This document shows positions 17,552 to 49,939 of a DNA stretch of 64,000 bases, in pieces. The stretch covers positions 2,752,001-2,816,000 of the forward strand of contig CBDFJF010000002.1 of the NCBI GenBank assembly GCA_965248265.1, in the 5' to 3' direction. A program made the position numbers and the translations under genes. Origin of the DNA: Candidatus Latescibacterota bacterium. Its GTDB lineage: Bacteria; Latescibacterota; UBA2968; UBA8231. The notes under the pieces were generated by a model that was not told the origin of the DNA, made no database searches, and worked only from the letters and a program-made list of their open reading frames with translations. Position 1 is the first letter of the stretch, and each line of letters begins with the position of its first letter.

Positions 17552-17634
17552 CGCGGCGTCCTGGAAGCAGGATCGTTAACGATCAAAGCCAGAGCCTTAG
17601 TCTGGAACACTTCATGGGAGATCCGAATGACCCT

Positions 17635-17679
17635 CGCAGGGCCAGACCTACCCGAAGTGGTCCGCACCTATTATACGAG
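17635..17679 (-). mobile_element. Orphan IS110 left-end remnant
   Basis: cagacctacccgaagtggtc.gcac.tattatacgag matches 36244-36280. Confidence 0.8.
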
Positions 17680-17838
17680 GACAAATAAGTGGCGTTATGG
17701 TGAGTTTAGATCCGTGTGGGCAGTGGTGTCGAGCGAATCAATGAATCTTTTTGAACGGCGGAATGCGGGGTTGAGGCCATCGACGGGCATTCCGAAGGAG
17801 AAGAATCCAGGGCTGAGCGGTGGTTTTTCCCGTTTTTC
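17678..17838 (-). mobile_element. IS91-family oriIS end (variant B)
   Basis: aggacaaataagtggcgttatggtgagtttagatc shared with 28168 and 47203; the 47.2-kb copy is contiguous with a transposase C-terminus. Confidence 0.8.
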
Positions 17839-19100: not shown

Positions 19101-19190
19101 GATTGCCCCTTTGCTGTTCGCGCAGCTCCTGATCGCGAATGGCGTATTTATTATATTGAACGACCCAGCGTCAAGGAGGCGGATTCGAAG

Positions 19191-21239
19191 GTGGCCAAAC
19201 GAATCAGCGTTGCAGTCAGAGAACGAGGTACAGAACGAGGGATCGCCGGCGTCGCTGTGACGACGGGTGAAGGCGTCGAAACCACAGATACGAACGGTCG
19301 ATGCGCGATCGACGTCGACGCGCTCGCCCGCTGGGTATGGATCTCGTGCCCCCAGGGAAAACGCGCGATAGACAGCTTCTACCGCCCGCTGCCAGCCGGT
19401 GAGGCGGTCTTCGAGCTGGCCGATGAGCCCGCCTCGACTGGCGACGAAGCACGTCTCGTACAGTTTACTGACACCCACGTAGTCGGCGTCGGCGACAGGG
19501 TCGCCGCGGCCGACCTGGCCGCTGCCCTCCGAGCGCTCGTAGCAGAATCAGATCCAGACCTGATCATCGCCAGCGGTGACCTCACCAATCTCGGCACAGA
19601 AGCGGAGCTGGCCGAGCTGCAGAGCGGTCTCAAGGCTGTCGACAGGCCGTTGTTCCTGATGTTCGGGGGACACGACGGTAATTCGGAGCGCCACCTCGAA
19701 GGCAGCGAGCCGCCCTTCACACTCAACTGGGAGGCCTGCTTCGGGCCGACGTACTACAGCTTCGACTGGGGAGGACGCCACATCGCTGTGTGGCCCAATG
19801 AGGAACATTTTTTCTCGGATGCCGAGCGCGAGCGCAAGAGGCGGTGGCTGGACGCCGATCTCGCGTTACATGCGGACAATGGCAACACGATCCTCGTCAT
19901 TCACACACCGCCGTCGACAGCTGAGTTTATCAATCAGATGCGCGAACTGGGTGTCTCTCTGATCCTGCATGGCCACTGGCATTCATCGAAAGCCTTCGCA
20001 TATAACGGCGTGACTGTGGCAGCGACCGCCCCACTGTGTTTCGGCGGCATCGACACAACAGCCAGAGGGTATCGCGTCATCGAGTGGAAGGGGTCGACAA
20101 CACCGCCGACGCGATTGGTTGCGCTCGGGGCGGAACATCTGCAACCGGCAACTCCGGAGCGTATTGGCCCGTTTCAGCTGGCCTGGGCGAAGGACGTTGC
20201 CACCGACTCTGGCAAGTCCTTCACCCCGGCTCACCGGGCGGCGCCGGCGGTACGTGGAGATTGTCTTCTTATCGGTGGAGGCTGCGACGACGCCGGCGCT
20301 GTGCAGTGCCGCTCAGCTTCTACGGGCGAACTGATATGGACAGCAGATCTGGAGTCGTCACCCCGCAACAGCGTGACGGTAGTCGATAAACGTGCGCTGG
20401 CTCTGGCGATGACCGGGGCGTTGTACAGTCTGAGAGTTGATGACGGCAGCGTCGAATGGCGCACAGATCTCGAGGGATGGCCTGGTCGCTGGCTGTACAC
20501 CGCTCCCGTCCACGCCGACGGGATCGTCTACGCCGGTGGCAAGGCAGGTTTCGGGGCCTATCGAACAGATTCGGGTGAACCCACATGGTACACCGAGCTC
20601 GAACAGAACGACGCGTGGTCATGTTACGCGAATCCTCTTATCGCCGAGGATGTCATCGTGCTGTTTGTGTCGAGGAGAGGTCTGCTCGCTCTGTCGCGCA
20701 TCGACGGCAGCATCGCCTGGGAAACCGAGCTCGATGTCGAATACTATTACGCAGCTCCCGTGCGCGTTGGGGAAGACCTTGTCACAGGCGGCAATCGACA
20801 GAGCCTGGCGCGCTTGCGCGTAAACAACGGCGAGATCATTTGGCACGAAGAGAGCCTGGCCGGCAATTACGCCTCCGGACTGGCCGCGGACGACCAGCGC
20901 ATCTATGTGTCGACCCCTGCGGGCGCGATTCAAGCCCTCGAGGCGGAGACCGGCCGGGAGCTGTGGCGAATGAATACGGGAAGCGATCTGCTCGACATGA
21001 CACCGTACGAGCGGGGCGTCTGCTCGCTGCTGGCCTCACCCGTGCGCATGGGGCCCTGGCTGATCGCCGGCGCCAACGACGGTGTGCTCAGGCTGCTCGA
21101 TCCCTCCAGCGGCGAAGTGCACGCGCAGGTTGGACTGGGAACGCCAATCACAGCGCCTGTGCAACCCATTGGCGAGACGGCCTTCCTGATGACGACGTGG
21201 GACGGAAGACTGCTTCGCTACGACAGCGCGGAAGTCTGA
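19191..21239 (+). CDS. Calcineurin-like metallophosphoesterase fused to a PQQ/BamB-type beta-propeller
   Basis: DTH, GDL, GGHD, HGHWH motifs; repeated G...W docking motifs; AAGGAGG then GTG start. Confidence 0.85.
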   Translation: MAKRISVAVRERGTERGIAGVAVTTGEGVETTDTNGRCAIDVDALARWVWISCPQGKRAIDSFYRPLPAGEAVFELADEPASTGDEARLVQFTDTHVVGVGDRVAAADLAAALRALVAESDPDLIIASGDLTNLGTEAELAELQSGLKAVDRPLFLMFGGHDGNSERHLEGSEPPFTLNWEACFGPTYYSFDWGGRHIAVWPNEEHFFSDAERERKRRWLDADLALHADNGNTILVIHTPPSTAEFINQMRELGVSLILHGHWHSSKAFAYNGVTVAATAPLCFGGIDTTARGYRVIEWKGSTTPPTRLVALGAEHLQPATPERIGPFQLAWAKDVATDSGKSFTPAHRAAPAVRGDCLLIGGGCDDAGAVQCRSASTGELIWTADLESSPRNSVTVVDKRALALAMTGALYSLRVDDGSVEWRTDLEGWPGRWLYTAPVHADGIVYAGGKAGFGAYRTDSGEPTWYTELEQNDAWSCYANPLIAEDVIVLFVSRRGLLALSRIDGSIAWETELDVEYYYAAPVRVGEDLVTGGNRQSLARLRVNNGEIIWHEESLAGNYASGLAADDQRIYVSTPAGAIQALEAETGRELWRMNTGSDLLDMTPYERGVCSLLASPVRMGPWLIAGANDGVLRLLDPSSGEVHAQVGLGTPITAPVQPIGETAFLMTTWDGRLLRYDSAEV

Positions 21240-23526: not shown

Positions 23527-23844
23527 ACGCTTAGTGGTTATAAGGTAGGTTATCGTTAGTCGATCCGGTGTTGTTTTTTCGCTTTTTTCGTGTTGATGGC
23601 GGTCGCTTTGGGTTGACGGTCTTCGAGTGAGCACTTGAGGCTGCGAATAGGGCCGGAGGGGAGTGGCTGTGAACGAAGATGGGATTCACAGCGATGGATC
23701 GGGACACAGCGGTGCCGTTGCTGCGACGGCGAATCGATCTCAGGCGGCGAAATCCAGCTCAGCTTGGGGATTGGGGCGTGCCGGGGCGATCGGCGGTGCC
23801 CGTGATGGCAGGCCGACGCCCTCCAGATAACGAACAATAGAACG
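23527..23844 (-). mobile_element. IS91-family oriIS end (variant C) plus transposase C-terminal remnant
   Basis: Direct repeat of 25392-25710; encodes RYLEGVGLPSRAPPIAPARPNPQAELDFAA*. Confidence 0.85.
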
Positions 23845-24857: not shown

Positions 24858-25735
24858 AACCTAGTGGGATAGAGCACAATTTCCCACATACGCACCCGCC
24901 TATGGCAATCTGCCTTAAATGTGGATCTGCTTTTTATAACCGACATTTCCCAGCTGGGATTTCCCATACTGCATATCCTTGCTTAGCTACGCCGCTAAGC
25001 CTCATTTCCGATAGAATACCAGATCTGTGAATATCCACGGTTTTTCGCCGTTACTGGAAGACCTTTCAGTCAAAAGGTAATCGGAGAAATACGAATTTAC
25101 CAGCGTATAATTACTCCTGAGACGTACCTCAACCACCAAAGCGGCAAGAAAACCATTTTTTCCAGTAATGCTCAGCGTCATCGAGCCCCTGGAGTCTGTG
25201 GGCGGTTTGACTGATAGGAGATTGCTGTCTGGACGATAGCGCAGAGTCTGGAGAAAACAAGGTGTGAGAGACCACTGGCTCCCCCGAGCTTACCCTCTCA
25301 ATCATTGCGGGTAACGATCCAGCCTGGGTGTTGGTCAGTGCTGGCGAGGCCGTCGGTATTGGCGAGGAAGTCGAAGGCTTTGGTGTCGCGAACGCTTAGT
25401 GGTTATAAAGTAGGTTATCGTTAGTCGATCCGGTGTTGTTTTTTCGCTTTTTTCGTGGTTGATGGCGGTCGCTTTGGGTTGACGGTCTTCGAGTGAGCAC
25501 TTGAGGCTGCGAATAGGGCCGGAGGGGAGTGGTTGTGAACGAAGATGGGATTCCCAGCGATGGATCGGGACACAGCGGTGCCGTTGCTGCGACGGCGAAT
25601 CGCTCTCAGGTGGCGAAATCCAGCTCAGCTTGGGGATTGGGGCGTGCCGGGGCGATCGGCGGTGCCCGTGATGACAGGCCGACGCCCTCCAGATAACGAA
25701 CAATAGAACGGGGCTCGGTAAGGGCCGCGACGACG

Positions 25736-25836: not shown

Positions 25837-27166
25837 TGCAGCAACCGGGTGCAGCAACCGGGCTGATAGGTAACAGTCTAAACCGGGTTGATGGGTGACA
25901 CTATTGTTTTGATTGAATTCACTCCCGTACGATCATGTCCCTCTCGTCGACGGTGGCTAGGAGGACGGTGTTGAAGTAGATGGCCCAGACGCCGTCGTCG
26001 ATCTCCTCGAGACCGATGTCGAGATGCTTGAGAGACTGAGCGATGAAGATGAGCTTGTGGCCGAGGCGTATGGTCCCGGCTCGGGTGACGTGCTTGATGA
26101 CGAAGTGACCGGGGTACTCAATGGTCGGCATGCGGCCGGGATAGGGCCGGGGTGATGGGTGGTACCGGGAGCCAGGAGTCTTGCCGTTGAGGGCGTCATG
26201 GGGACGCTCGTCGTTGTAGAGCTGTCGGAAGCGCTGGAAGGATCGCTGCTGGGCGGCCTTGTTGGCGGCGGGTGGCCGACAGGTAGCGGCCTTCAAGGTG
26301 CGATGCATGCGTTCGTGGGCGCCATTTTCCTGCGGCGATGCCGGGCGGATCCGCTGGTGCACGATGCCGAGCCTCATCCACCAAACGTTGAGTCGGCATA
26401 GCCCATGCAATCCTCTGGAAGCAAAGGGAACGCCGTTGTCGGTGCGAATGGCCTGAGGCAGGCCGAATTCGCGGAAGGCTCTCTCGAAGACCGGACGCGC
26501 ATGCAAGGTCTTGATGTCGGGCAGGGCGCGGCAGGTCAGGAGATAGCGAGTGTGCTGATCGCTGATGGTGAGAGGGAAACACCAAACTCCGTTCTTGGTA
26601 GGAAATTGGCCTTTGAAGTCGGCCGTCCACAGATCGTTGGGGTTGTCGGTGGTCGGCGGCACGGCTCCGGGGTGCTGACGTGGGCGTCGTCGTCGTCGCT
26701 TCTTCACCAGGCCTTCGCGCACCAGCAGATCGCCTGCCGTACTGACCGCCGGCCAGGAGCAGATGTGCGGATGTCGAGGCGCCAGCCAGTCCAACAGTTT
26801 GTTCGGTCCCCAATCGGGGTGCCGTGTGCGCGCTCCGAGAATGAGCTCGGCAATCTCTGGCGCCATGCGATGCGGACAGGTGTGGGGCGCGTGACTGCGG
26901 TCCTGTAACCCGGGCACCCCCTCTTCGGCGTGCCGCTGAAGCCACTTGTATCCGGTTTTGCGGCTGATCCCGTATCGCTCGCACAGCTCCGCTCTCGAGT
27001 AGTGCCCGCGCTGATCGTCGGCGATAAATCGCTTACGTTGTTCCATGGGTGCTGTCTCCATCCAGGGCATCGACCAACCTCCCAATTGGGGTTGGTCAAA
27101 AAGTAGAAGGAGTGTCACCCATCAACCCGGTCAGATGTGTTACCAATCTACCCGGTTTGTACCACA
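25837..27166 (-). mobile_element. IS481-family insertion sequence
   Basis: Perfect 20-bp subterminal IR (25883-25902 / 27111-27130); TGT end at 27166; 13-bp tandem duplication at the other end. Confidence 0.88.
25919..27070 (-). CDS. IS481-family DDE transposase
   Basis: MPW start, HTH (GISRKTGYKW), WTADFKG, IRTDNG, NGAHERMHRTLK. Confidence 0.93.
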   Translation of the reverse strand: MPWMETAPMEQRKRFIADDQRGHYSRAELCERYGISRKTGYKWLQRHAEEGVPGLQDRSHAPHTCPHRMAPEIAELILGARTRHPDWGPNKLLDWLAPRHPHICSWPAVSTAGDLLVREGLVKKRRRRRPRQHPGAVPPTTDNPNDLWTADFKGQFPTKNGVWCFPLTISDQHTRYLLTCRALPDIKTLHARPVFERAFREFGLPQAIRTDNGVPFASRGLHGLCRLNVWWMRLGIVHQRIRPASPQENGAHERMHRTLKAATCRPPAANKAAQQRSFQRFRQLYNDERPHDALNGKTPGSRYHPSPRPYPGRMPTIEYPGHFVIKHVTRAGTIRLGHKLIFIAQSLKHLDIGLEEIDDGVWAIYFNTVLLATVDERDMIVRE

Positions 27167-28162: not shown

Positions 28163-28335
28163 AGTATAGGACAAATAAGTGGCGTTATGGTGAGTTTAGA
28201 TCCGTGGGGGCCGTGGTGTCGAGCGAATCATGAATCTTTTTTTGAACGGCGGAAGGGGGGGTGGCCATCGACGGGCATTGCGAAGGAGAGGAATCCAGAG
28301 CTGAGCCTGTTTTGCACGGTTTTCAAACCGTTCGA
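28163..28335 (-). mobile_element. IS91-family oriIS end (variant B)
   Basis: Minus strand ends TTATTTGTCCTATAC, resembling ISCR oriIS (TTCCTATAC); homologous to 17678 and 47198. Confidence 0.82.
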
Positions 28336-28564: not shown

Positions 28565-31204
28565 TCAGCGCTCAGCCAGCTTCGTCAACGCCGCCAACAC
28601 CTGAATCCGCGCCTTGTCCGCCAGCGTCCGGTCCAGGTCGATCAGCCAGTGGAAGCCGCCCAATGGCTTGTCGTCGTCAAGCTCATCCGAGTGGCCGCCC
28701 GCTTCACAGACACTGGCTGGCAGGGTCTCCAGCAGCCGACGAGCTTCGTCCAATTCCGGACCTGTGATCCCCCGGGCGGAGGCGTCCTTGATCGCCCGGT
28801 CCAGCATCACGAAGTACTCATAATCCTGGATCCCTTCCCGGGCGGCCTCGAGGTGTTTGCCGGCCGTTATCGAATCCCTGTCGATGAACAGGGGCGCGAA
28901 CGTGCTCTTGAAGGCCAGGTACTCGTTCCACGATGAGGCACCGCCCGTGTCGCCGAACGACCACATGTGGATGGCTTCCGCCCCGTAGTGCCAGCTCGTC
29001 CACGCCATCAGCCGGCCCGCGTACGGATCCTTGGTCCGACCCATCCACGCCTTGTAGAACTCGAGGGCGATCCCCTGATCGCGCTTGTTCAAGAAGTAGT
29101 TGCGATACTCCTCGCCCTGTCTCAAAAAGGAACCGTAGTTGGGGCTCAGTACATGGCAGGCGTCGATCATGTCCTGATTCGCCTCGAGCATATCCATGTG
29201 GGTCACATCCTCCCAAACGCGGACTCCCGTGTCCGCTGCGCGGATCGGCTTCGCCCACAGGAGGATGCGCTCGTCGAGATACGGCTCGTCAGGCTCATCC
29301 ACGAGCAGCAGCGCGAACTGCTCCGGTGATATCCCTTTCGACTTCATGTGCCGCGCCCAGAAGCTTACCCACGCTTTTACTGCAGTATTGAATTCGGGCG
29401 TCCCCATGGGCAACGACTCGAAATCGGTGCCGACTTTCGCGAACACCATGTACTGGGCAGCATCCGGCCATAGTTCGATCCAGGCGTCGAAGTAGCCGGT
29501 GGCGGGTGGCGCCGTCATCGCTCCCGTCGCATCGTGCGTGCCGCGCGGCAGCACCAGCTTGAGGCCCCACGGTGAGTCGACGCGGTGTTCGCGCAGGTGC
29601 TCGACAAGCGCTGAGCGGTTCTGCTCTGTTATGAGGGGAAAGTGACCGATCCGGTCCGTGTAATCCCATCCGCCGAAGTGCAGCGTCTGCTTCTGAGGGA
29701 AGTCCAGGGGATACAGGTGCATGCGTAACGGAAACCGCTTGGCGCTGGGTGTCGATTCTACGACGATCTCGCCCTCGTATGTGCCGGGCTCGACGTCGAC
29801 CGGATTGAAGGTCAGCCACACTTGTCGCGTCATGCCGGAGGGCACGGTCACCGTATACAGGTCGTTCTCGGTGACGGCCTCGGGTAGCGCGGCCGCGACC
29901 GGCACGCCGCCGCGCGTGTCCGTCCAGATCACCTCGTGAACGGTCACGTATTCCGGATTGTCACCCCCGGGCAGACCGCTCAGCTTGAACGCCACCTGCA
30001 CAGGCTCATCGCTGCTGTTGCTGACATTGAACGAGCCCGCGCGGTGTTCCTTGCGCATCAGGTGCACGTCGACCGCTAGTTCAGCCTCCGAGTCCGGGGT
30101 GCCGATGAGCGGAAGTGCGTCCCACAGATCAGAGCGCCAGAACGTGAGCGGCTCAAGACTTCTCGCGCGCCAGAGCCAGGCCTGGGTTCGCAGCACCCGT
30201 TCGTGCCACGAATTCAGCGGCAGCACGGCCTCGAAGTCCTCCCCGAACGTCGCGCTGGCCTGTCCCAGGTTCTCTTCGACGGCCGCCAGCTCTCCCAGGA
30301 CGTCGTCTCGTATCGAAACCGGGATACCTTCCGCTGCGGCCGCATTCCGCAAGGCCTCGATGTCCTGCGTGAGGCGCGTGCGAATCCCTTTCTGGTTGGC
30401 GAGCCCACGTGCGAAGGTGCTGACGTCGCCGACGGACGGTCCTGGCAGCGGCTCATACACCCACTCCGGCTCTCCCGCGTAGACCTCGATCTCGTCTACG
30501 AAGGTGTACGGCTCGTTCCACACCACCAGGCTAACGTAGCGCCCGTGTGTCCGCAGCCGGTCGGTCCAGTAGCGGTACGTCGCATACTGCTCGGCTCGAG
30601 TTTTGTAGGCATCCTCGATGACCCGCTCACGAACCTCGGGAGTCATTTTCTCCGGAAAGCGCTCCCGGTACTGGTTGTAGTGGTGGTGCACTTCGGCCTG
30701 ACTGAACACCATCTCGTCGACGGCCCACATGGCGTCGGGTGCCTTCACTGGTGCGAACGGTCCGTGCTGTTCCTCACTCAGCTGAACCAGGTCGCCGATT
30801 TCGTGAAACTGCTCGTCTTCACCGGCCACGAGGACGCGGATCGTCAGCGGCCATTTCACATTGGCAAACCCGCCAGCGGTGTGGTAGGATACCCCCCGTA
30901 TCGGCTTCACCTCGCCCAGGTCAATCGTCACCATGGAGGGCGTCTTTTCCGCGTAGCCGACCGTCGACTTCTGCACCCAAAAATAACCCTCCGTGTAGAC
31001 CCCGTCCGTCAGCTGCTCGTAATCACCCGGGTCCGAGCAATGCCCGTAATTCGGTCGAGGCTCGATCGTGTAGCTGGCCCCGAGGGCGATGTTTGCGCTC
31101 GGACGCTCCGTCGGGACCGTTCGGTGTGCCGTTGGTGAAAGGGCCGCTTCCTGCGCCCACGTCTGTACTGCCATCAATAACGCTATCGCTGTCGACCACT
31201 TCAT
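28565..31204 (-). CDS. Secreted protein with discoidin-like N-terminus and GH123/DUF4091-like domain
   Basis: Signal peptide, NIALG..Y, LTDG, FVDEIEVY, VDEP, LEAAREGIQDYEY. Confidence 0.65.
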   Translation of the reverse strand: MKWSTAIALLMAVQTWAQEAALSPTAHRTVPTERPSANIALGASYTIEPRPNYGHCSDPGDYEQLTDGVYTEGYFWVQKSTVGYAEKTPSMVTIDLGEVKPIRGVSYHTAGGFANVKWPLTIRVLVAGEDEQFHEIGDLVQLSEEQHGPFAPVKAPDAMWAVDEMVFSQAEVHHHYNQYRERFPEKMTPEVRERVIEDAYKTRAEQYATYRYWTDRLRTHGRYVSLVVWNEPYTFVDEIEVYAGEPEWVYEPLPGPSVGDVSTFARGLANQKGIRTRLTQDIEALRNAAAAEGIPVSIRDDVLGELAAVEENLGQASATFGEDFEAVLPLNSWHERVLRTQAWLWRARSLEPLTFWRSDLWDALPLIGTPDSEAELAVDVHLMRKEHRAGSFNVSNSSDEPVQVAFKLSGLPGGDNPEYVTVHEVIWTDTRGGVPVAAALPEAVTENDLYTVTVPSGMTRQVWLTFNPVDVEPGTYEGEIVVESTPSAKRFPLRMHLYPLDFPQKQTLHFGGWDYTDRIGHFPLITEQNRSALVEHLREHRVDSPWGLKLVLPRGTHDATGAMTAPPATGYFDAWIELWPDAAQYMVFAKVGTDFESLPMGTPEFNTAVKAWVSFWARHMKSKGISPEQFALLLVDEPDEPYLDERILLWAKPIRAADTGVRVWEDVTHMDMLEANQDMIDACHVLSPNYGSFLRQGEEYRNYFLNKRDQGIALEFYKAWMGRTKDPYAGRLMAWTSWHYGAEAIHMWSFGDTGGASSWNEYLAFKSTFAPLFIDRDSITAGKHLEAAREGIQDYEYFVMLDRAIKDASARGITGPELDEARRLLETLPASVCEAGGHSDELDDDKPLGGFHWLIDLDRTLADKARIQVLAALTKLAER

Positions 31205-33285: not shown

Positions 33286-34614
33286 TCACGGCCGGGGCCG
33301 CCGTTGCCACCGCGGGTAACTGATCGACTCTGTGGCGGGGTGACCTGTAAACTTCACTTTGAACGGTATCTCATATAGATGTACGGCATAAGGCTCGAAG
33401 GAGTCCTCAAACACCCCGTTCTCGACGGCCACCAGTCGATGCTCAGAACGCACCGAAGCACCATCTGGTGCCAATCCGCCATCAGGAACAGGAACCTTGA
33501 ACCGAGCTTTGATCGGCGAATCGAGGCCGTTGACCGCGATCAGGAAGTAGCCGCTGTCAGTTTGCCGCAGTGACAGGTGCAGTGCTGTATATCCAAGTTC
33601 TCCTGATCCGTCCCAGGTGGGCCTTCGACTGTCCTTGGACCCTTCGATGATTTCCCACACGAGCCCGGGCGCCTCCGGTGCCAAGAGGTAAGGCGCAAGA
33701 AGGCGCAATTCCGCCGTCAGGTCCGCCCACTGCGACCAGTACGCCGGATCTGACTGGTTGATCCACCAGTCGCGCCCCTCCTCACGATAGTGGAAGGCAA
33801 AGTAAGTAACGCCGCTGATGCCGCGCGTCACAGCCATATAGGTCATGCAACGAACCTCGACTATCGTCGGGGCACGATCGGGGATGTTACTTTTATGTAA
33901 AAAATCGAGGCCCTGCACGGGCGCCATCTGAATCCACATCCAACCCAGCTTGCCCGCCGCGCCCTTCATCACACTGTCGGAGTATTGGGCAACATGGTTC
34001 AAGGTAAATACAGGGACCGGGTAAACGTCACCCGAGTGGATGTCGGCGACATCGCGATAGTCCTGATAGTCCTTGAGATATCCGTAGCCCAGGTTGATGT
34101 ATACCGGGTGCAGCGGATCAAGCCGCTTGATCAGGTCATATGCCGGCTTGAACCTTTCGGGTGGCACCCTGTAGGGCAGGTCGACGTTAGGCACACCCTC
34201 GGGGCCAGAGACGCGGATATTGGGCTCATCCTCCAACTCCCACACCAGCAGTCCGGGGGCATCGCGACAGGCCATAACTATCTGCTCAAGCACTTCCAGG
34301 TCTTCCCACACACCATTGCCCACTGAAGCCATCGCGTACATGCCGTTGGCATAAGCCTCATCAATGTCGGAACGCCATGACTCCAGGTTTAGGCGGGGCG
34401 GGTGTTGCCCGTGGGTAATGGCGAGATTGAAGCCCTTCTCGCCAGCATCCGGCAGAGAATAATGCCCGTGCCCGACCCAGCCTATGCCCACCGGGAAAAA
34501 CGGTTTCCCGTTTACATAGAGGCCTTCTGTGCGAATCTCCACACGCTTTACCGGCGGGGGCGGACCCGCCTGCGTCGGCAATGCGTTCAGGAAGACGATC
34601 CCCACGAGCATCAA
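33286..34614 (-). CDS. Putative glycoside hydrolase (TIM-barrel), hypothetical
   Basis: LYVNGKPFFPVG, WELEDEP, DVYPVP; possible frameshift in the signal peptide (RBS and ATG at 34685 in another frame). Confidence 0.55.
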   Translation of the reverse strand: MMLVGIVFLNALPTQAGPPPPVKRVEIRTEGLYVNGKPFFPVGIGWVGHGHYSLPDAGEKGFNLAITHGQHPPRLNLESWRSDIDEAYANGMYAMASVGNGVWEDLEVLEQIVMACRDAPGLLVWELEDEPNIRVSGPEGVPNVDLPYRVPPERFKPAYDLIKRLDPLHPVYINLGYGYLKDYQDYRDVADIHSGDVYPVPVFTLNHVAQYSDSVMKGAAGKLGWMWIQMAPVQGLDFLHKSNIPDRAPTIVEVRCMTYMAVTRGISGVTYFAFHYREEGRDWWINQSDPAYWSQWADLTAELRLLAPYLLAPEAPGLVWEIIEGSKDSRRPTWDGSGELGYTALHLSLRQTDSGYFLIAVNGLDSPIKARFKVPVPDGGLAPDGASVRSEHRLVAVENGVFEDSFEPYAVHLYEIPFKVKFTGHPATESISYPRWQRRPRP

Positions 34615-34794
34615 ACAGCTTGCGCCATAGCTCCGAGACCACTTAGGGATGAGCCAGTGTTGGTGTGTTGAGGTGATTTTGCCATAGCCAGTATCTCCTT
34701 AAGTATCTGTCTAGCGGGGATTTCCCATATAACACGATGGTTAGACAAGCGGTAACATGTCAACGCCAATCGTGGGCAAATATCGAGTCTCCGT

Positions 34795-35985
34795 TCAGTT
34801 GAGGATAGGTGTGTAAGGTCTGTTGTTTTTAAGGACGCTGAAGACGACGTGGAGCATCTTGTTGGCGACATGGGTGAGTGCGACGAGGTGGTGCTTGCCG
34901 CGATCGATCTGCCGTTGATAGACCTGAGTGAAGAGCGGGTCATGGCTCTTGAAGACGGCGATCTCACAAGCCTGCATGACGGCGGTGCGCAGATAGCGGC
35001 TGCCACGTTTGGACATCCTGCCACGGCCGACTTGGTCGCCGCTGTCGAACTGCTTGACGTCGAGGCCAGCGGTGGCGACGAACTTGCGAGCACCGTGCTG
35101 ATCCTCGGGATGAAACACCGGCAAGATCTCGGCGAGGATCGTTGGCGCCCAGACGGGTCCAAGACCGGGAATGGATTGCAGGAGGGTCTGTTGCTCGCTC
35201 ACGAGATCCCGCAATTGTTCGTCGAGTTGCGCGATCTGATCGATGAGCAGGTTGACGCGCTCCATGACAAAGCGGATCTCCAGGGCCAGATGCTGCTGGC
35301 GATGCGTGAGCGCGAAGGAGTCCTTGGCAGCCGCCTTCAGGGCCTGGGCCTGATCCCGTCCGAAGGCCCCACGGCTGGCATCCTTCAACAGCCGCGTCAG
35401 GCGCCGAATGTCGACGCGGGCCAGCTCATCCGCAGTGGGAAATTGAGCCAGGACGGCGCGACTGGCAGCGCCGAACAGATCGGCGAAGTGCTGTCGGTAT
35501 TCGGGGAAGGCCAGGTCGAGGAGACTGACCAGATGGGTCTTCTCGGCCTTGACCGTGTGGGCGCACTGGAAGCGCAACCGGGTGAGGTCCCGTAGCTGAC
35601 GTACCTGGCGATCGGGAATAGCGCAGACCTTCAGGTGCGTTTCTCGCAGCAGGTGGGCGATCAACAGTGCATCGGCACTGTCGGTCTTGGTGCCACGGAT
35701 GGTGATATTACGCCGCGCTGCAACGACCAGGGGGTTGAGGACCTCGACCGAGTAGCCAGCCAGGATCAACACTTCGTACAGGACCATCCAGTAGTGCCCA
35801 GTGGCCTCCATGCCGACGCGGATGTCGGCGGCGAGTTGTTCGGTCTCGGCGAGACGTCGACACAACTGCTCAACCCCTTCGCGGGAGTGCTGCACGGCAA
35901 GATTTCGGAAGACGGCCTGGCCGTCCTGATCCAACAGTGTGGCGCGGTGACTGCGTTTCGCCACATCGATACCGAGAGTCCACAT
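34795..35985 (-). CDS. IS110-family recombinase/transposase
   Basis: GIDVAK, MEATG, KTDSAD (DEDD); GLD...DSG serine motif; AAGGAG RBS before MWTLG. Confidence 0.95.
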   Translation of the reverse strand: MWTLGIDVAKRSHRATLLDQDGQAVFRNLAVQHSREGVEQLCRRLAETEQLAADIRVGMEATGHYWMVLYEVLILAGYSVEVLNPLVVAARRNITIRGTKTDSADALLIAHLLRETHLKVCAIPDRQVRQLRDLTRLRFQCAHTVKAEKTHLVSLLDLAFPEYRQHFADLFGAASRAVLAQFPTADELARVDIRRLTRLLKDASRGAFGRDQAQALKAAAKDSFALTHRQQHLALEIRFVMERVNLLIDQIAQLDEQLRDLVSEQQTLLQSIPGLGPVWAPTILAEILPVFHPEDQHGARKFVATAGLDVKQFDSGDQVGRGRMSKRGSRYLRTAVMQACEIAVFKSHDPLFTQVYQRQIDRGKHHLVALTHVANKMLHVVFSVLKNNRPYTPILN

Positions 35986-35999
35986 TGGACGAGCTCCTT

Positions 36000-36265
36000 G
36001 GTCAAGAGACCGAAGCTGCCCACGATCGGGTAACACCAGCTGGCACATCCTCGTAGCCAGATCAGGGAACATGGGTCCCATCAAGCGGTAAGTGCATGTG
36101 CTGGCGCGTATGGCGTTCTATCCGAGAGGACCGAGCCTCGAGGCACGAATAGCCAACCCCAGCAGCTTCACTGATCTAGGATTGCCTCACTGCATCAGAA
36201 AAGCAAGCACTGAGTGCACGCAGCTGGTCGGTGCCCCGCAGGTCAGACCTACCCGAAGTGGTCTG
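36000..36265 (-). ncRNA. Predicted IS110 bridge RNA (boundaries approximate)
   Basis: Left-end noncoding region. Loop with TTACCGCTTG and TACGAG matches the donor junction; upstream loop carries TATTCGT and GGATAG. Confidence 0.7.
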
Positions 36266-36278
36266 CACTTATTATACG

Positions 36279-36378
36279 AGGATAAATAAGGGCCCGTTAT
36301 CGGTAGTCAAACCCCTCGAAGGCGTCGGCCTGCCGTCACGGGCACCGCCGATCGCCCCCGCACGCGCCAATCCCCAGC
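36279..36378 (-). mobile_element. oriIS tip (variant E) followed by an inverted 60-bp transposase scrap
   Basis: aggataaataagggcccgttatcggtagtcaa resembles variant A and 41876; 36320-36378 is an approximate reverse complement of 23762-23820. Confidence 0.7.
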
Positions 36379-36576
36379 ATGGTTAGGCACGATAGGCAGT
36401 AATTATGGCTAGTTTGGATGCCTCAGGGTCTTGATGTCGCGTGGACCTGGCGCTTTTGTGAGCGGCGCATTTCGATTTTGCGCGCCAGCAACTGACACCA
36501 GGACAGACGATGCGGACAGGGCCCGTGGGACGATTCGAGCATGAGAGACCGCGGCTTCAACTCGGTCACGGTAGGC

Positions 36577-37662
36577 TCATCCCAAACTCAGCTCGCGATC
36601 GGCTAGGGGCAGGTCGATGCGGACATGTCCCCGGCGGTGGGATTCGCGCATGGCGATAGCGATTTCCAGCGCCTCGCGGCCGAACTCGCCGGGGCAGATG
36701 AGCTCCTCGCCAGCCTCGATGGAGCGGCAGACCCCTTCGATGGCGTCGACCATCGAGCTGCGAGGATGCCAGGGATTGGGAAACTGGTGTTGAACGGCTA
36801 CGCCACTGTCGGGATCCGTCTTCCACAGCTCGAACTGCGCGTGGGCGTTGCGGGAGACGATGCGGCCGTGCTCCCCGATGAACTCCAGCATCCACTGGCG
36901 GCCGCCGTCGATCTCGGACCGCGAGTTGAGCCAGGCCTGCACGCCATTGTCGTAGACGACGTGCCCCGAACCACACAGGTCGGAGTCAGCGGCCGCGGCC
37001 TCGTCGCTGTCCATGTGTCCGAAAACCCAGCGCGCCGGCGCGCCGGCGAAGAGACGCATGAGAGCGAGGCTGTGACTGCCGATGTTGGACAGGCTGGCGG
37101 AGCAGTGACAGACGATGGAGCGCAGCTCGCCGATGGCGCCGTCGGCGATGGCCTGCCTGGCATTCGTGTACCAGCTGTACCAGTTGAGGTGGCAGGCCAT
37201 GGCCAGGATGGTGTTCGTCTCGCGGCAGGCTTCTATCATGGCGTCAGCCTCGGCGAGGGTCCGGCACATCGGCTTGGTGGCGAAGATGGCGCGGACGCCG
37301 GCCTGTGCGAGGCCGATGACGACTTCGGCCCGTTCGTCCGGTCGCGTAGTGACGGCGACGAGATCTGGCTTCTCTATTTGAACCAAATCCCGGAAATCCA
37401 GATAGAGCGCCTCGACGTGCCAGCGGCGGCGGAAGTCGTCGAGCTTGGCCTGATCGATGTCGGCGCCAGCGACGAGCTCGGCACCACGAGCCTCGATGAT
37501 GGCCGGTGCGTGAGCCCAGGGCCACGGGTAGTGAGCCATGCCGACGTGCTCGTCGTCGATGATGCTGCCCATGCGGCCGCAGCCGACGACGGCGGCGCGG
37601 TAGGAGTGCTGTGGCCGCGACTGCTCCACGACCTTGAAGGCTTCGGCGCGAAATCGACTCAT
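36577..37662 (-). CDS. Gfo/Idh/MocA family oxidoreductase
   Basis: VVGCGRMG, TKPM, GSH. Confidence 0.9.
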   Translation of the reverse strand: MSRFRAEAFKVVEQSRPQHSYRAAVVGCGRMGSIIDDEHVGMAHYPWPWAHAPAIIEARGAELVAGADIDQAKLDDFRRRWHVEALYLDFRDLVQIEKPDLVAVTTRPDERAEVVIGLAQAGVRAIFATKPMCRTLAEADAMIEACRETNTILAMACHLNWYSWYTNARQAIADGAIGELRSIVCHCSASLSNIGSHSLALMRLFAGAPARWVFGHMDSDEAAAADSDLCGSGHVVYDNGVQAWLNSRSEIDGGRQWMLEFIGEHGRIVSRNAHAQFELWKTDPDSGVAVQHQFPNPWHPRSSMVDAIEGVCRSIEAGEELICPGEFGREALEIAIAMRESHRRGHVRIDLPLADRELSLG

Positions 37663-37682: not shown

Positions 37683-37835
37683 CGTATAGGACCGATAAGG
37701 GGCAATATCATTAGTCTATGACGGCAGAGGTGGAGTGTCGAGAGGGATTGTGAGCCAGGCGTAGAGCAGCGGATTGGTGCGGCGAGCGATGGGCGAGTGG
37801 ATTGGGCCTCCGAGTGCACCGACGGGTGCTTTGAA
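37683..37835 (-). mobile_element. IS91-family oriIS end (variant D)
   Basis: Near-identical to 44052-44175; minus strand ends TTATCGGTCCTATACGT. Confidence 0.82.
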
Positions 37836-44040: not shown

Positions 44041-44482
44041 CGTATAGGACACGTATAGGACCGATAAGGGGCAATATCATTTGTCTATGACAGCAGAGGT
44101 GGAGTGTCGAGAGGGATTGTGAGCCAGGCGCAGCGGAGCGGATTGGTGCAGCGAGCGATGGGAGTGGATTGGCGCCTGTCGAACGGATCACGGATGCTGG
44201 TGTGCCCTTTTCGGGCCTCAACAGTGCACTGGTGGGCGCACCGGTCCGTTCGGATCAGGCCAGTCGTGTTCGATCAGGCTGCCAAATCGAACTCGGGTTG
44301 CGGGTCACGTCGTGGTGGCGCGATGGGTGGCGGCCGCGCCGGCAGGCCGACGCCTTCCAGGTAGGACCGGATCGAGGCGGGCTCGGTCAGGGCGGCTACG
44401 ATTTTCATGTGCCCGCCGCAGTCGGGGCATTCGCTGATATCGATCTGGAACACGCGCGCTAGCAGTTGACACCAGGACAGGG
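44041..44482 (-). mobile_element. IS91-family oriIS end (variant D, duplicated tip) plus transposase C-terminal remnant
   Basis: LLARVFQIDISECPDCGGHMKIVAALTEP...PQPEFDLAA*; cgtataggac twice at 44041 and 44052. Confidence 0.85.
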
Positions 44483-47197: not shown

Positions 47198-47538
47198 AGT
47201 ATAGGACGAATTAGTGGCGTTATGGTGAGTTTAGATCTGCACGAGGCCTGGTGTCGAGTGGATCTTGGGATCTTTCTGAACGGCGGAATGCGGGGTTGAG
47301 GCTTTAGACGGGCGTGCCGAAGAGGAGGAATCCACGGCTGAGATAGGTTTCTTACCGTTTTTGCCACCCGGATGATCAGTTGGGGCGCAACAAACCAAGC
47401 GCGCTGTGATCAGGCCGCGTATTCGAACTCAGACTGCTGATCGTGCCTTGCCGGAGCAATTGGCGGAGGCCTTGCTGGCAGGCCGACCCCCTCGAGGTAT
47501 GACCGAATCGAGGCGGGGTCGGTCAGCGCAGCAACAAT
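47198..47538 (-). mobile_element. IS91-family oriIS end (variant B) plus transposase C-terminal remnant
   Basis: IVAALTDPASIRSYLEGVGLPARPPPIAPARHDQQSEFEYAA*; truncates a signal-peptide ORF starting at 47081. Confidence 0.85.
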
Positions 47539-48155
47539 GTACCGGTGCGGCAATGGGTGCTGAGTCTGCCGTATGAGATCCGCTATCGCCTGGCCTGGGA
47601 CGGCGAGTTGGTCGGCGCCCTGCTGGGCGTTTTTCTGCGCGTCGTCTACGGCTGGTATCGACGTCAGGCACGAAAGCAGGGATACGAACACAGTCGCTGC
47701 GGCTCGGTGACGTTCGTGCAGTGATTCGGGTCATCTTTGAATCTCAATCCTCACGTCCATGTCCTCATGATCGACGGCGTCTACGGCAATGGCGAGGCGG
47801 GTCCGGAGTTCGTGGCCGCACCGACCCTTAGCGATGATGATGTGCAACAGATCGTCGAGACCACGGCGCGACGCGTTGTGCGCCTGCTGCAACGCCGTGG
47901 CCTGCTGGAAGAGGGCCATGTCGATCCGCTGTGGGAGCAGGAGCCCCTGCTGGCGATGATCACGGCGGCTTCGATCCAGGGCCAGGTGGCTACCGGCGAG
48001 CGCGCCGGTCAACCTGTGCGCCGACGCTTGCTCGATCCTCAAGAGGGCATCCGCACCGGCCCGCTGTGCTTCGCTTCGCGTGGATTCTCTTTGCATGCGG
48101 CCACCCGCGTGCCGGCCACCGACCGCACTCGCCTGGAAAGACTGTGCCGCTACGT
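47539..48155 (+). pseudogene. Inverted internal fragment of IS91 transposase with a stop codon
   Basis: VPVRQWVLSLPYEIRY...VQ*FGSSLNLNPHVH...RLERLCRYV. Confidence 0.88.
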
Positions 48156-48219: not shown

Positions 48220-49939
48220 CGCATAGTGAGGATAAACAGCATTATCGGTAGTCAGTCAAGGTGTTTTGGGCTTTTTCGATTGCGTTGAGGGCCGTGCTTT
48301 TGCGTTGATCGTGGTGCGGTGAACGATGGGGCAGCGGATAGGGTGCCCGGATCAGCGCTTGCGGGCGCAGCGGCAGCTGTCAGCGAGAGATGGGGACGCA
48401 GCGCTGTCTGGGGTGGGGCTCAGGCGGCAAAGTCGAACTCGTGTTGGGATCGGGCCGTGCCGGAGCGATGGGCGGCGCGCGCGACGGCAGGCCGACACCC
48501 TCCAGGTAGCGCTGGATCGAGCCGGGCTCGGTGAGGGCGGCGACAATCCTCATGTGGCCGCCGCAAGCGGGGCACACGGTAACGTCTATTCGAAAAACTC
48601 TCCGGAGGAGGTCAGCCCAGGCCAGGCGGTGCCGGCGTTGGGCGGGGGTGGGCTCCGCAGTATGCGTACAGGGGTTCGCTTCGGGGGCCCCTTCCTTCGG
48701 GCTCGGTACGATCCGTGCCCGGTCGGCGGCGTTGGGTGCCAGGACGCCGTGATAGCGCACCAGGTTGAGGCGCCGCGGCGGTACCAGGGCGGCCAGTTTC
48801 TCAATCAATTCTTGCGGCGAGAGTTCAATTCGATAAGTGCCGTCGGACCAGACCGTTTTCAGGTCAAAGGCCACTCTCTCGGCATCCAGGATCTGCAGTC
48901 GGCCCGCTGCCAGCGGCGGTCGATTGACGTAGCGGCACAGCCTTTCCAGGCGGGTGCGATCGGCGGCCTGCACGCGGGTGGCCGCATGCAGGGAGAAACC
49001 GCGCGCGGCGAAGCACAACGGACCGGTGCGGATGCCCTGTTGGGGATCGAGCAGACGCCGGCGCACGGGCTGGCCGGCGCGCTCGCCGGTGGCTACCTGG
49101 CCCTGGATCGAAGCCGCCGTGATCGTGGCCAGCAGCGGCTCCTGCTCCATGAGCAGATCGGTATTGCTCTCTTCCAACAGGCCGCGCCGTTGCAGCAGGA
49201 GCACCACCCGTTGGGCCGTGGTCTCGACGATCTGTTGCACGTCGTCGTCGCTCAGTGGTGGCGCCGGCACGAATTCCGGACCGTCCTCGCCGTCGACGTA
49301 GACACTGTCGATCATGAGGACATGGTTGTGGGGATTGAGGTTTAAAGCAGAACCGAATCGCTGCACGAAGGTGACTGAGCCGCAGCGACTGTCTTCATAA
49401 CCCTGCTCCCGTGCCTGACGACGATACCAGCCGTAGACGACACGCAGGAAGACGGCCAGCACCGCCCCGACCAGCTCTTTGTCCCATGCCAGGCGATAGC
49501 GGATCTCGTACGGCAGGCTGAGCACCCACTGCCGCACCGGTACCTGAGGCAGGACCTCGTCGGTGAGTCGGGCGGCGGTGTCCGCCATCCGTCGTCCCAT
49601 ACAACTCGGGCAGAAGGAACGTCGTTGGCACGAGAACGCGACGACGCGATCCTTGCAGCAGTCCTTGCACCGCACCCGCAGAAACCCGTGAGCGAGAATT
49701 CCGCACCGGAGATAGGCGTGCAGCTCGTCCTCGACGTGGATCGGCAGCTGCCGATCCGAGGTGCGGGTGCGCTCGATGAAGGTCTCCATGTGCTCGGCCA
49801 GCACCTGGTAGAGGGGGTCTGTCTCGGGTGTGCGGGCAGGCTCGCCAGCGACGCAGACACATCTTCCCCGGTGTAACAACTGCTACTCGCAAAATGGCTC
49901 GGGTGTCAGAATTCTTCGGGCATGGCATGCCGCCGCATA
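48220..49939 (-). mobile_element. Near-complete IS91/ISCR-family rolling-circle element
   Basis: oriIS hairpin GATAA-N6-TTATC at left; palindromic ggcatggcatgcc terIS candidate at right; CGCATA at both boundaries; no terminal IRs. Confidence 0.85.
48380..49879 (-). CDS. IS91-family HUH transposase
   Basis: Zn-binding CG...C..C...SC..R.FCPSC, NPHNH (HUH), LCRYVNRP, RYHG, C-terminal CPACGG; start uncertain. Confidence 0.93.
   Translation of the reverse strand: MLHRGRCVCVAGEPARTPETDPLYQVLAEHMETFIERTRTSDRQLPIHVEDELHAYLRCGILAHGFLRVRCKDCCKDRVVAFSCQRRSFCPSCMGRRMADTAARLTDEVLPQVPVRQWVLSLPYEIRYRLAWDKELVGAVLAVFLRVVYGWYRRQAREQGYEDSRCGSVTFVQRFGSALNLNPHNHVLMIDSVYVDGEDGPEFVPAPPLSDDDVQQIVETTAQRVVLLLQRRGLLEESNTDLLMEQEPLLATITAASIQGQVATGERAGQPVRRRLLDPQQGIRTGPLCFAARGFSLHAATRVQAADRTRLERLCRYVNRPPLAAGRLQILDAERVAFDLKTVWSDGTYRIELSPQELIEKLAALVPPRRLNLVRYHGVLAPNAADRARIVPSPKEGAPEANPCTHTAEPTPAQRRHRLAWADLLRRVFRIDVTVCPACGGHMRIVAALTEPGSIQRYLEGVGLPSRAPPIAPARPDPNTSSTLPPEPHPRQRCVPISR

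What the first reader, a model, noticed from the sequence alone, without database searches (positions are those of the whole stretch)
36040..36165. Readable bridge-RNA guides: donor loop matches the IS110 junction, target loop approximates the oriIS consensus
Seen on the minus strand. A loop closed by GCACAT/ATGTGC holds TTACCGCTTG (36091-36082), identical to the right-end sequence TTACCGCTTG-t-CT. It also holds TACGAG (36055-36050), the reverse complement of CT-CGTA at the left end. The upstream loop, closed by TGGC/GCCA, holds TATTCGT (36151-36145) and GGATAG (36123-36118) in the same register, predicting target TATTCGT-n-CT-ATCC. Observed oriIS ends are TATTTGT-c-CT-ATAC, AATTCGT-c-CT-ATAC, TATTTAT-c-CT-AACC and TATCGGT-c-CT-ATAC, each 2-3 mismatches away. 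Known: IS621 bridge RNA has a target loop 5' of the donor loop and a CT core. Inference: the guide is a compromise across oriIS variants. The donor assignment is strong; the target assignment is moderate.
Basis: partly seen in the sequence, partly recalled or inferred. Interest (0 to 1): 0.8.

Follow-up and report, generated by a model that had tools for sequence, protein, structure and literature searches.

The report
IS110 bridge RNA aimed at IS91 ends
This is the guide ("bridge") RNA of an IS110-type jumping gene: one loop reads the element's own joined ends, the other reads the tail end of a second kind of jumping gene (IS91 family), so it is an ordinary member of a recently described class with an uncommon choice of target.

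Summary
All four motifs are at the stated coordinates. They lie in the left end of a 1.54-kb IS110-family element on the minus strand (34743-36280). It has an intact DEDD recombinase gene and CT at both junctions.

The two-loop architecture is conserved in an alignment of 16 distinct homologous left ends. Stems covary: 93.7% of cells paired, 14 pairs changed on both sides, 0 of 500 shuffles as good. RNAalifold leaves both target-guide strands unpaired.

The 3' target guide covaries with the right flank: 49 of 56 positions in 14 elements, against a permuted mean of 22.9. The sister copies B and C carry TATCCTC/GCTTAG. That predicted site occurs perfectly 12 times in the genome, all at IS91-type 3' ends.

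The target class is the end 150-330 nt downstream of Y2-transposase genes, the oriIS side.

- The conserved donor-loop closure is GCAC/GUGC, not GCACAT/ATGTGC.
- "2-3 mismatches" within this window is no better than chance.
- The window copy has no perfect site in its genome; the best is one mismatch, outside the window.
- The "compromise guide" idea is untested.

Verdict: a new member of a known kind. Transcription is not shown.

The parts
34743..36280 (-). Whole IS110-family element, including the CT core at each junction (left CT 36280-36279, right CT 34744-34743).
   Evidence: It is 1538 nt and the only 100% copy in the genome. Copies B and C elsewhere are about 85% identical to it and 1534/1538 identical to each other.
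34795..35985 (-). Recombinase gene, 396 aa, intact.
   Evidence: Pfam DEDD_Tnp_IS110 (E 2.2e-40) and Transposase_20 (E 1.8e-17).
36028..36212 (-). Bridge-RNA region: 5' stem-loop, target-binding loop, donor-binding loop. The RNA ends are not mapped.
   Evidence: conserved in 16 distinct homologs, with covarying helices.
36111..36155 (-). Target-binding loop. Closing stem TGGC (36155-36152) / GCCA (36114-36111). 5' strand TATTCGTGCCTC (36151-36140). Inner hairpin GAGG (36139-36136) / CCTC (36129-36126). 3' strand T-C-GGATAG-AAC (36125-36115).
   Evidence: The inner hairpin has 3 of 4 pairs with changes on both sides. Closing stem: one search counts one pair with changes on both sides (G-C/A-U, 2 sequences); a second (U-A/C-G) is my reading by eye, because MAFFT puts the A-type rows one column out of register.
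36145..36151 (-). Left target guide TATTCGT, same sense as the left target. A likely continuation is C-CT at 36143-36141, after a bulged G at 36144.
   Evidence: Copies B/C have TATCCTC(C)ACT here, and copy C's flank is TATCCTC-A-CT (7/7, and 10/10 if one base is bulged). L015 matches 9/10 and L111 matches 9/9.
36118..36123 (-). Right target guide GGATAG, the reverse complement of CT-ATCC.
   Evidence: 49/56 matches between the reverse complement of the guide and the right flank across 14 elements. Fragments E and G in the same genome are flanked by CT-ATCCG.
36043..36106 (-). Donor-binding loop. Outer stem CGCCAGC (36106-36100) / GCTGGTG (36040-36034). Closing stem GCAC (36095-36092) / GTGC (36046-36043). 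Inner hairpin GGGA (36079-36076) / TCCC (36068-36065).
Evidence: helices 5-7 covary.
36082..36091 (-). Left donor guide TTACCGCTTG, identical to the last 10 nt of the right end before t-CT (34755-34746).
   Evidence: L111 has G-to-A at position 10 in both the guide and the right end.
36050..36055 (-). Right donor guide TACGAG, the reverse complement of CT-CGTA at the left junction (36280-36275).
   Evidence: L015 has TGCGAA with left end CGCA, a matching change.
36281..36320 (-). Left flank: the terminal about 40 nt of an IS91-family 3' (oriIS-side) end, ...GACTACCGATAACGGGCCCTTATTTATC. LT7 TATTTAT is at 36288-36282.
   Evidence: (I8) shows 36314-36374 is like the 3' coding end of the Y2 transposase gene at 48446-48506.
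34739..34742 (-). Right target AACC. The guide predicts ATCC, so there is 1 mismatch.
34754..34759 (-). TTGACA in the right end. With TATAAT in the left end (36276-36271) it would form TTGACA-17 nt-TATAAT across a circle junction.
   Evidence: Read; spacing counted by hand (15 nt of right end plus core, then 2 nt of left end). One search finds no sigma-70-like site in the integrated copy.

Best explanation
The region 36212-36028 (minus strand) encodes the bridge RNA of an IS110-group insertion sequence.

Donor loop (the 3' loop). It pairs with the element's own circularised junction. [quoted passage not shown] Target loop (the 5' loop). It specifies the insertion site in the same way. TATTCGT (probably continuing into C-CT after a one-base bulge) reads the left half. 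GGATAG reads CT plus four bases of the right half. The encoded site is TATTCGT-n-CT-ATCC.

Target class. The natural target of this IS110 clade is the last 10 or so bases of the 3' (oriIS-side) end of IS91-family rolling-circle elements, plus the four bases that follow. Different IS110 copies carry guides matched to different IS91 end variants.

Shown here: motif positions, conserved two-loop structure with covarying stems, guide/flank covariation, and the IS91 identity of the flanks.

Inferred: that the RNA is made, that pairing follows the IS621 strand rules, and that the recombinase exchanges strands at the CT. Copy A sits in a site with 3 mismatches and has no perfect site in its genome. 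Whether it is still active is open.
For: Element and gene. Motifs and junctions are in place. The recombinase carries DEDD_Tnp_IS110 and Transposase_20.

Structure. In 16 distinct homologous left ends (alignment A2; recombinases down to 47% identical among the fetched loci), 33 pairs are 93.7% paired, 14 pairs have both-side changes, and 0/500 shuffles reach this. Slid controls give 43-58% paired. Target-guide strands are unpaired in the RNAalifold consensus.

Right guide against right flank. Matches are 49/56 in 14 elements: 7 perfect and 7 at 3 of 4. The permuted mean is 22.9 and 0 of 100,000 permutations reach 49. It holds inside kin groups too. In the TTxx group the third position is C/C, C/C, G/G, C/C, T/T. 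In the Axxx group ATCC, AAGC and ATAC guides sit beside ATCC, AAGC and ATAC flanks.

Left guide.
- Copy C: 7/7.
- L111: 9/9 with the core.
- L015: 9/10.
- Overall P = 0.016.

Independent prediction test. The site read off the B/C loop, TATCCTC-N-CT-AAGC, has 12 perfect matches in 7.3 Mb. About 0.2 are expected (my arithmetic, uniform composition). Eleven are flagged as IS91-type ends by a loose motif; the twelfth has a diverged end.

Target class.
- The IS91-type end lies downstream of the stop of 6 of the 7 Y2-transposase copies inspected. The seventh is cut off within it.
- The same arrangement holds beside the IS110 copies in L016/L020 and L107 from other genomes and a metagenome.

Architecture and strand rule agree with passages of PMC11208160.
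Against: - No expression evidence. Only one 151-nt contig of a metatranscriptome run, about 92% alike, overlaps 36093-36242. Contigs show neither strand nor transcription.
- No sigma-70-like promoter in the integrated copy.
- The single-sequence fold is not better than shuffles: z = +0.52 for 195 nt and -1.42 for 296 nt.
- No Rfam family matches.
- Copy A's own site has 3 mismatches to its guides: 2 of 7 left, 1 of 4 right.
- The genome holds 0 perfect sites, 5 one-mismatch sites (only 1 at an IS91 end) and 884 three-mismatch sites. The guide alone cannot explain why A sits at an IS91 end.
- The register of the left guide differs by one base among homologs and needs a bulge in A, B and C.
- The left-guide statistic is modest and uses a best-register score.
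- The elements compared are kin, so permutation P values overstate independence.
- Guide and flank strings for one search were copied by hand from earlier outputs.
Confidence: 0.88

Rival explanations
1. The architecture is a bridge RNA, but copy A is a decayed or orphaned copy. Its target loop has drifted away from any usable site, or its cognate IS91 subfamily is absent. On this view the approximate matches to the window's oriIS ends are relics, not a working 'compromise' specificity.
For: - A is a single copy, about 85% identical to B/C.
- It has 0 perfect genomic sites, whereas B/C have 12 perfect sites and are 99.7% identical to each other, which suggests recent movement.
- Within the window, matches with up to 3 mismatches are at chance level.
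- Contigs of runs X1, X2 and X22 mostly carry another base at 36122. That turns the right guide into the ATAC-reading form, which is one mismatch closer to two of the window's ends. The same form occurs in L022.
Against: - The recombinase ORF is intact.
- All stems of the RNA are intact in A.
- One IS91 end lies only 1 mismatch away (TATTCTT-c-CT-ATCCG).
- Fragments E and G sit beside CT-ATCCG, which is exactly what A's right guide reads.
Confidence: 0.35
2. The guide is a selected compromise. It is kept one or two mismatches from several IS91 end variants so that one RNA can use many of them.
For: - TATTCGT is one mismatch from four variants present in the genome: TATTTGT, AATTCGT, TATTCTT and TATCCGT.
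- Copies B and C, with identical RNAs, sit in two different end variants. TATAACC-a-CT-AAGC has a perfect right half and 3 left mismatches. TATCCTC-a-CT-ATGC has a perfect left half and 1 right mismatch.
- A preprint abstract reports insertion with only half of the RNA matched (abstract only).
Against: - B/C's guide matches 12 ends perfectly, so the family does not need compromise guides.
- Nearness to several members of one sequence family is expected of any member's cognate guide.
- No test of selection was possible.
Confidence: 0.15
3. Base pairing is not the main determinant. The recombinase or RNA recognises a structural or protein-bound feature of the IS91 oriIS, such as subterminal palindromes or a single-stranded state. 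The short guides only fine-tune the crossover point.
For: - Every junction of this IS110 family found in the genome lies at an IS91-type end or carries its ANNC right flank (5 left and 8 right junctions). Yet sites with equally many mismatches are hundreds of times more common elsewhere.
- A preprint abstract describes a target stem-loop as a second specificity layer for another IS110 (abstract only).
- IS91-family oriIS regions carry subterminal palindromes (passage).
Against: - Strong guide/flank covariation and 12 perfect matches for B/C show that pairing matters.
- More distant homologs (L026, L027, L109) sit in flanks in which no Y2 transposase was found with the Y2 query and that I did not recognise as IS91 ends.
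- No structure of the IS91 end was analysed here.
Confidence: 0.25

Closest known systems
IS621 bridge RNA (IS110 group; Durrant et al. 2024, PMC11208160, passages read)
   Same: - The RNA is encoded in the left end, upstream of a DEDD recombinase gene.
- The first internal loop reads the target and the second reads the donor.
- The 5' strand of each loop has the sense of the top strand, so it pairs with the bottom strand. The 3' strand is the reverse complement of the top strand.
- The core is CT, and the right guide is 4 bases plus the core.
   Different: - No Rfam model matched; I do not know whether Rfam 15 holds a bridge-RNA family.
- One unguided or variably guided base lies between the 7-nt left half and the core.
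- Copies A, B and C need a one-base bulge in the left target guide.
- The left donor guide matches 10 nt of the right end but not the t-CT that follows.
- The target is the end of another mobile element. That IS621 targets REP sequences is recalled; one search shows only the title of a cited reference on REP sequences as IS targets.
IS1111-group elements IS4321/IS5075 and IS1111-attC, which insert into the ends of other mobile elements (references 10 and 24 of PMC11208160, seen only as citations)
   Same: An IS110-family element whose specific site lies in the terminal repeat or recombination site of another mobile element.
   Different: - Those are IS1111-group elements, said to carry the RNA in the right end.
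- Their targets are Tn21-family inverted repeats or integron attC sites, not IS91-family ends.
ISPpu10, with sequence-plus-structure target recognition (bioRxiv 10.64898/2026.03.19.712850, abstract only)
   Same: An IS110 element whose insertions all fall in copies of one conserved repeat. This suggests specificity beyond the short guides.
   Different: The target there is an intergenic repeat with a GC-rich stem-loop. No such stem-loop was examined here.

Membership tests
IS110-group bridge RNA | Lies in the non-coding left end of an element that encodes a DEDD (RuvC-like) plus Tnp-domain recombinase. | tested here: met
   (both Pfam domains; 396 aa, intact). The left end, from its first base (36278) to the start codon (35985), is 293 nt.
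IS110-group bridge RNA | Two internal loops, each closed by stems and containing a small hairpin, with the target loop 5' of the donor loop. | tested here: met
   7 helices, 14 pairs with both-side changes, 0/500 shuffles as good. A single-sequence fold alone gives no support.
IS110-group bridge RNA | Donor loop: the 5' strand equals the right-end sequence, and the 3' strand is the reverse complement of core plus left-end start. | tested here: met
   Matching changes occur in L111 (guide and right end) and L015 (guide and left end). The left donor guide does not match the t-CT itself.
IS110-group bridge RNA | Target-loop guides covary with the flanking target halves. | tested here: met
   right 49/56, P < 1e-5; left P = 0.016; 12 perfect genomic sites for the B/C guide. 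For copy A itself the match is 5/7 left and 3/4 right.
IS110-group bridge RNA | The core dinucleotide is present at both junctions and in the guides. | tested here: met
   CT is at 36280-36279 and 34744-34743. AG ends both 3' guides.
IS110-group bridge RNA | Transcribed as a stable non-coding RNA that binds the recombinase. | not testable with these tools
   Only Logan contigs were available. One RNA-library contig overlaps 36093-36242, which does not show transcription.
IS110-group bridge RNA | Changing the guides retargets insertion. | not testable with these tools
   This is a bench experiment.
IS91-family 3' (oriIS-side) end, as the target | Lies a short distance downstream of a Y2 HUH transposase gene and ends the element. 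| tested here: met
   (Y2_Tnp plus Zn_Tnp_IS91 at 48380-49879); the end lies 150-330 nt after the stop in 6 of 7 copies inspected, and is truncated in one; oriIS is 167 bp downstream of the CDS in another IS91. However, only 4 of 32 regex-defined ends have a transposase hit within 900 nt, so most are solo ends.
IS91-family 3' (oriIS-side) end, as the target | Functions as the origin of rolling-circle transposition, with a specific tetranucleotide beside it. | tested here: inconclusive
   The four bases after CT are ANNC in all ends. In L107 a disrupted Y2 reading frame resumes within 4 nt of the core. Among some subfamilies similarity continues about 6 nt past the CT. The exact terminus and any origin function are not shown.

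The most novel reading that the evidence does not exclude
This IS110 clade is a dedicated RNA-guided parasite of IS91-family rolling-circle transposons.

- Its left guide reads the last bases of the IS91 oriIS.
- Its right guide reads the tetranucleotide that IS91 itself chose as its insertion site.
- It therefore lands exactly at the oriIS nick site.

Guide variants (ATCC, ATAC, AAGC and others) then track IS91 end and target subfamilies across genomes. Insertion would either disable the host IS91 or let the IS110 ride along with it.
Probability: 0.3. Interest if true: 0.65.

Novelty: new member of a known kind. Interest (0 to 1): 0.42.

Why it matters
It shows that bridge-RNA guides can be read from raw sequence and checked by covariation with only about 16 homologs. 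This gives a worked natural example with several guide variants and their sites in one genome.

The target choice adds to the known habit of IS110-family elements of living inside other mobile elements. I found no mention of this particular target in three full-text searches. It may bear on how rolling-circle IS91/ISCR-like elements are kept in check.

Two copies with the same RNA sit in two half-matching sites. These are natural data points for the question of mismatch tolerance in bridge recombinases.

Tried and rejected
- Rfam (gathering thresholds on the whole window; E-value mode on 35950-36300). Nothing relevant came back, only three chance-level hits with E above 1.
- Single-sequence folding. 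It is not better than shuffles, so it is not used as support.
- Sigma-70 and terminator scan of 34600-36500: none found.
- Reads. Only Logan contigs were available, many from related copies. No circle junction or empty site could be read. One 'opposite strands' joint, 34777/36276, in a single contig of X2 is uninterpretable. Parts without cover mean nothing.
- Regex for IS91 ends. It was too narrow: it missed the 12 perfect B/C sites later found. The '4 of 32 ends with a transposase nearby' and '4 of 23 transposase C-termini with an end' figures therefore understate the link.
- Defining the IS91 terminus from the inverted transposase fragment beside the window's IS91 copy. Homology to the transposase stops about 70 nt before the end, so it gave no boundary.
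- The ungapped register for A's left guide (ATTCGTG-C-CT). It gives 0 perfect and 1 one-mismatch site, not at an IS91 end. I rejected it in favour of the bulged register, which is the one that gives 7/7 for copy C.
- The idea that the B/C guide is a hybrid of two end subfamilies. I dropped it when perfect TATCCTC-a-CT-AAGC ends turned up.
- An integron attC reading of the repeated ends. I considered it from memory and dropped it because the ends follow Y2 transposase genes.
- Rows dropped before the counts.
  - Right-flank test: L015, L016/L020 and L113 (no right flank in hand) and L028 (flank cut after 2 nt).
  - Left-flank test: L014, L029, L110, L112 and L113 (no or too short left flank), L028, and L111. 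L111 has only a 7-nt flank, which matches perfectly, so dropping it worked against my reading.
- L022's left flank (3/7) was kept although that element is internally deleted.
- Supplements of the bridge-RNA papers were not opened. They may list natural target classes, which would bear on the novelty claim.
- The structure-prediction tools, complex prediction and the large protein searches were not used. The question did not need them.

Full report
**What is there**

On the minus strand the window holds a 1538-nt IS110-family element, 34743-36280. CT is present at both junctions (36280-36279 and 34744-34743). Its 396-aa gene (35985-34795) carries DEDD_Tnp_IS110 and Transposase_20.

The finding's interval lies in the 293-nt non-coding left end. 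The right end reads TTACCGCTTG-T-CT, and the left junction reads CT-CGTATAAT.

**Copies**

The window's genome (G000, 7.3 Mb, two contigs) holds these copies:
- this copy (A);
- two full copies, B and C, about 85% identical to A and 1534/1538 identical to each other;
- seven more fragmentary matches. Two are in the window: a right-end piece at 11946-12580 and a 52-nt left-end remnant at 17632-17684.

Aligning the left ends gave the first real test. The donor-loop strands are invariant, while the proposed target-loop strands differ:

| Copy | Left strand | Right strand |
|---|---|---|
| A | TATTCGT | CGGATAG |
| B, C | TATCCTC | GGCTTAG |

Copy C's left flank is TATCCTC-A-CT. Copy B's right flank is AAGC. 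Both are exactly what the B/C loop predicts.

**Homologs and structure**

Protein-guided scans gave closer relatives in other genomes and in metagenomes. Sixteen distinct left ends were aligned.
- RNAalifold leaves both strands of the upstream loop unpaired.
- A structure with seven helices is 93.7% paired, with 14 pairs changed on both sides. None of 500 shuffles reaches this, and slid controls give 43-58% paired.
- GCAC (36095-36092) / GUGC (36046-36043) is 100% paired, with three sequences changed on both sides.
- The closure of the target loop, TGGC/GCCA, is supported by one both-side change counted (G-C/A-U, 2 sequences). A second (U-A/C-G) I read by eye. MAFFT puts the five A-type rows one column out of register there, so the tool's 82.8% for that helix is an underestimate by alignment.
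- Single-sequence folds are no better than shuffles.

**Guides against flanks**

The four bases before the invariant AG of the 3' strand, reverse-complemented, were compared with the four bases right of the core in 14 elements.
- 49 of 56 positions agree: seven perfect and seven at 3 of 4.
- The permuted mean is 22.9, and none of 100,000 permutations reaches 49.
- Kin share guides and flanks, so the P value overstates independence. The agreement also holds inside each kin group.

The 5' strand is less clean. The register shifts by a base among homologs, and A, B and C need a one-base bulge.
- Copy C matches 7/7, or 10/10 with the bulge.
- L111 matches 9/9.
- L015 matches 9/10.
- Overall, the summed matches are 52 against 45.5, P = 0.016, in 11 elements.

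As a separate test, the site predicted from the B/C loop occurs perfectly 12 times in the genome, where about 0.2 is expected. All 12 are at the same kind of repeat end.

**The donor side**

The donor guides hardly vary, so covariation is thin. Two cases exist:
- L111 has the same G-to-A change in the guide and in its right end.
- L015 has matching changes in the 3' guide and in its left end.

**What the target is**

The flanks of A, B, C and the remnant share ...ACT..CGATAA......TTAT.....CT followed by ANNC.
- The window has one intact IS91-family transposase gene (48380-49879, Y2_Tnp plus Zn_Tnp_IS91).
- Its element ends ...TTTATCCTCACT 158 nt after the stop, at 48225.
- Of the seven transposase copies I inspected, six have such an end 150-330 nt downstream. 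The seventh is cut off within it.
- The same arrangement holds beside the IS110 copies in L016/L020 (two other genomes) and L107 (a metagenome).
- An IS91 paper puts oriIS 167 bp downstream of the CDS. A 2026 paper describes the tetranucleotide beside oriIS.

Most ends in this genome are solo, however.

In L107 a disrupted Y2 reading frame resumes within 4 nt of the IS110 core. The IS91 terminus therefore lies at or very near the CT. Whether the right guide reads IS91's last bases or its target tetranucleotide is not settled.

**Copy A in particular**

- Its encoded site, TATTCGT-n-CT-ATCC, has no perfect match in the genome.
- There are five one-mismatch sites, only one of them at an IS91 end (TATTCTT-c-CT-ATCCG, outside the window). 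There are 64 two-mismatch and 884 three-mismatch sites.
- Its own site has three mismatches.
- Within the window, matches with up to three mismatches are at chance level: 9 against 8.4 expected.
- Fragments E and G sit beside CT-ATCCG.
- L022, and most contigs of runs X1/X2/X22, carry the ATAC-reading variant of the right guide.

Drift, a missing cognate subfamily, tolerance of half-matched sites (abstract) and a second recognition layer (abstract) are all open. The 'compromise' idea is not needed and was not tested.

**Expression**

- No sigma-70-like site is found in the integrated copy.
- Across a circle junction, the right end's TTGACA and the left end's TATAAT would be 17 nt apart. I read this from the sequence and counted by hand.
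- No raw RNA reads were available.

**Comparison and novelty**

The features match the IS621 description. That paper predicted bridge RNAs in 85.7% of IS110-group elements catalogued by ISfinder. This is therefore a new member of a known kind.

I found no mention of IS110 elements aimed at IS91-family ends in three full-text searches. Supplements were closed, and subscription literature is not covered. Targeting the ends of other mobile elements is well known for the IS1111 group (citations seen).

**Verdict**

Interest is moderate.

Noticed in passing
window 34754-34759 and 36271-36276 (minus strand): The right end carries TTGACA and the left end carries TATAAT. In a circularised element they would be 17 nt apart, a consensus sigma-70 promoter pointing into the bridge RNA and recombinase gene. 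The integrated copy has no such site.
   Followed up: partly
window 17632-17684 and 11946-12580: A solo 52-nt left-end remnant of the IS110 abuts an IS91-type end (TATTTGT-c-CT). A separate fragment bearing a right end is flanked by CT-ATACG. Both are decayed copies of the same family.
   Followed up: partly
window 17678-17837, 28164-28306, 36281-36376, 37684-37793, 44053-44162, 47199-47362: Ordinary genes are each followed by an IS91-type 3' end: a zinc alcohol dehydrogenase at 18120-19478, an 879-aa ORF at 28565-31204, and a GFO/IDH/MocA oxidoreductase at 36577-37662. The region looks like an array of oriIS-bounded segments, reminiscent of ISCR-style gene capture.
   Followed up: no
window 47539-48155 versus 48927-49543: A 617-nt inverted repeat, 85% complementary, lies here. 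Next to the intact IS91 copy is an inverted fragment of another Y2 transposase gene. Its homology stops about 70 nt before the intact copy's end.
   Followed up: partly
G000 C2, just downstream of the Y2 transposase copy that ends at 1156514 (minus strand): The perfect B/C target is present twice, as an 18-nt tandem duplication (TTATCCTCACTAAGCGCC repeated) at an IS91 end. The origin is unknown; a footprint of IS110 activity is one possibility.
   Followed up: no
window 36122 (plus strand C, read as A): In contigs of runs X1, X2 and X22 most depth carries A here. That changes the right target guide to the form reading CT-ATAC. The same form is seen in locus L022 of a related genome, whose right flank is ATAC.
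   Followed up: partly
window 23527-23592 and 25392-25457 (plus strand): Two unoccupied B-type sites (TTATAACCA-CT-AAGCGT on the minus strand) sit in a 1866-nt direct repeat.
   Followed up: no
window 9201-10063: There are six copies each of two interleaved 53- and 56-nt repeats with a 144-147-nt period, inside the 1073-aa ORF 7763-10984. This is a repeat-domain protein.
   Followed up: no
window 25919-27118 (minus strand): An IS481-type transposase (rve, LZ_Tnp_IS481, HTH domains). It is one more mobile element in a region dense with them.
   Followed up: no
alignment A2 columns 11-16 and 39-45 (window about 36208-36203 and 36180-36175): A nearly invariant ACTTGC lies about 17 nt before CATAAT/TATACT-like hexamers in the more distant homologs. 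This could be an internal promoter inside the left end. It overlaps a helix that shows covariation, so the two readings compete.
   Followed up: no
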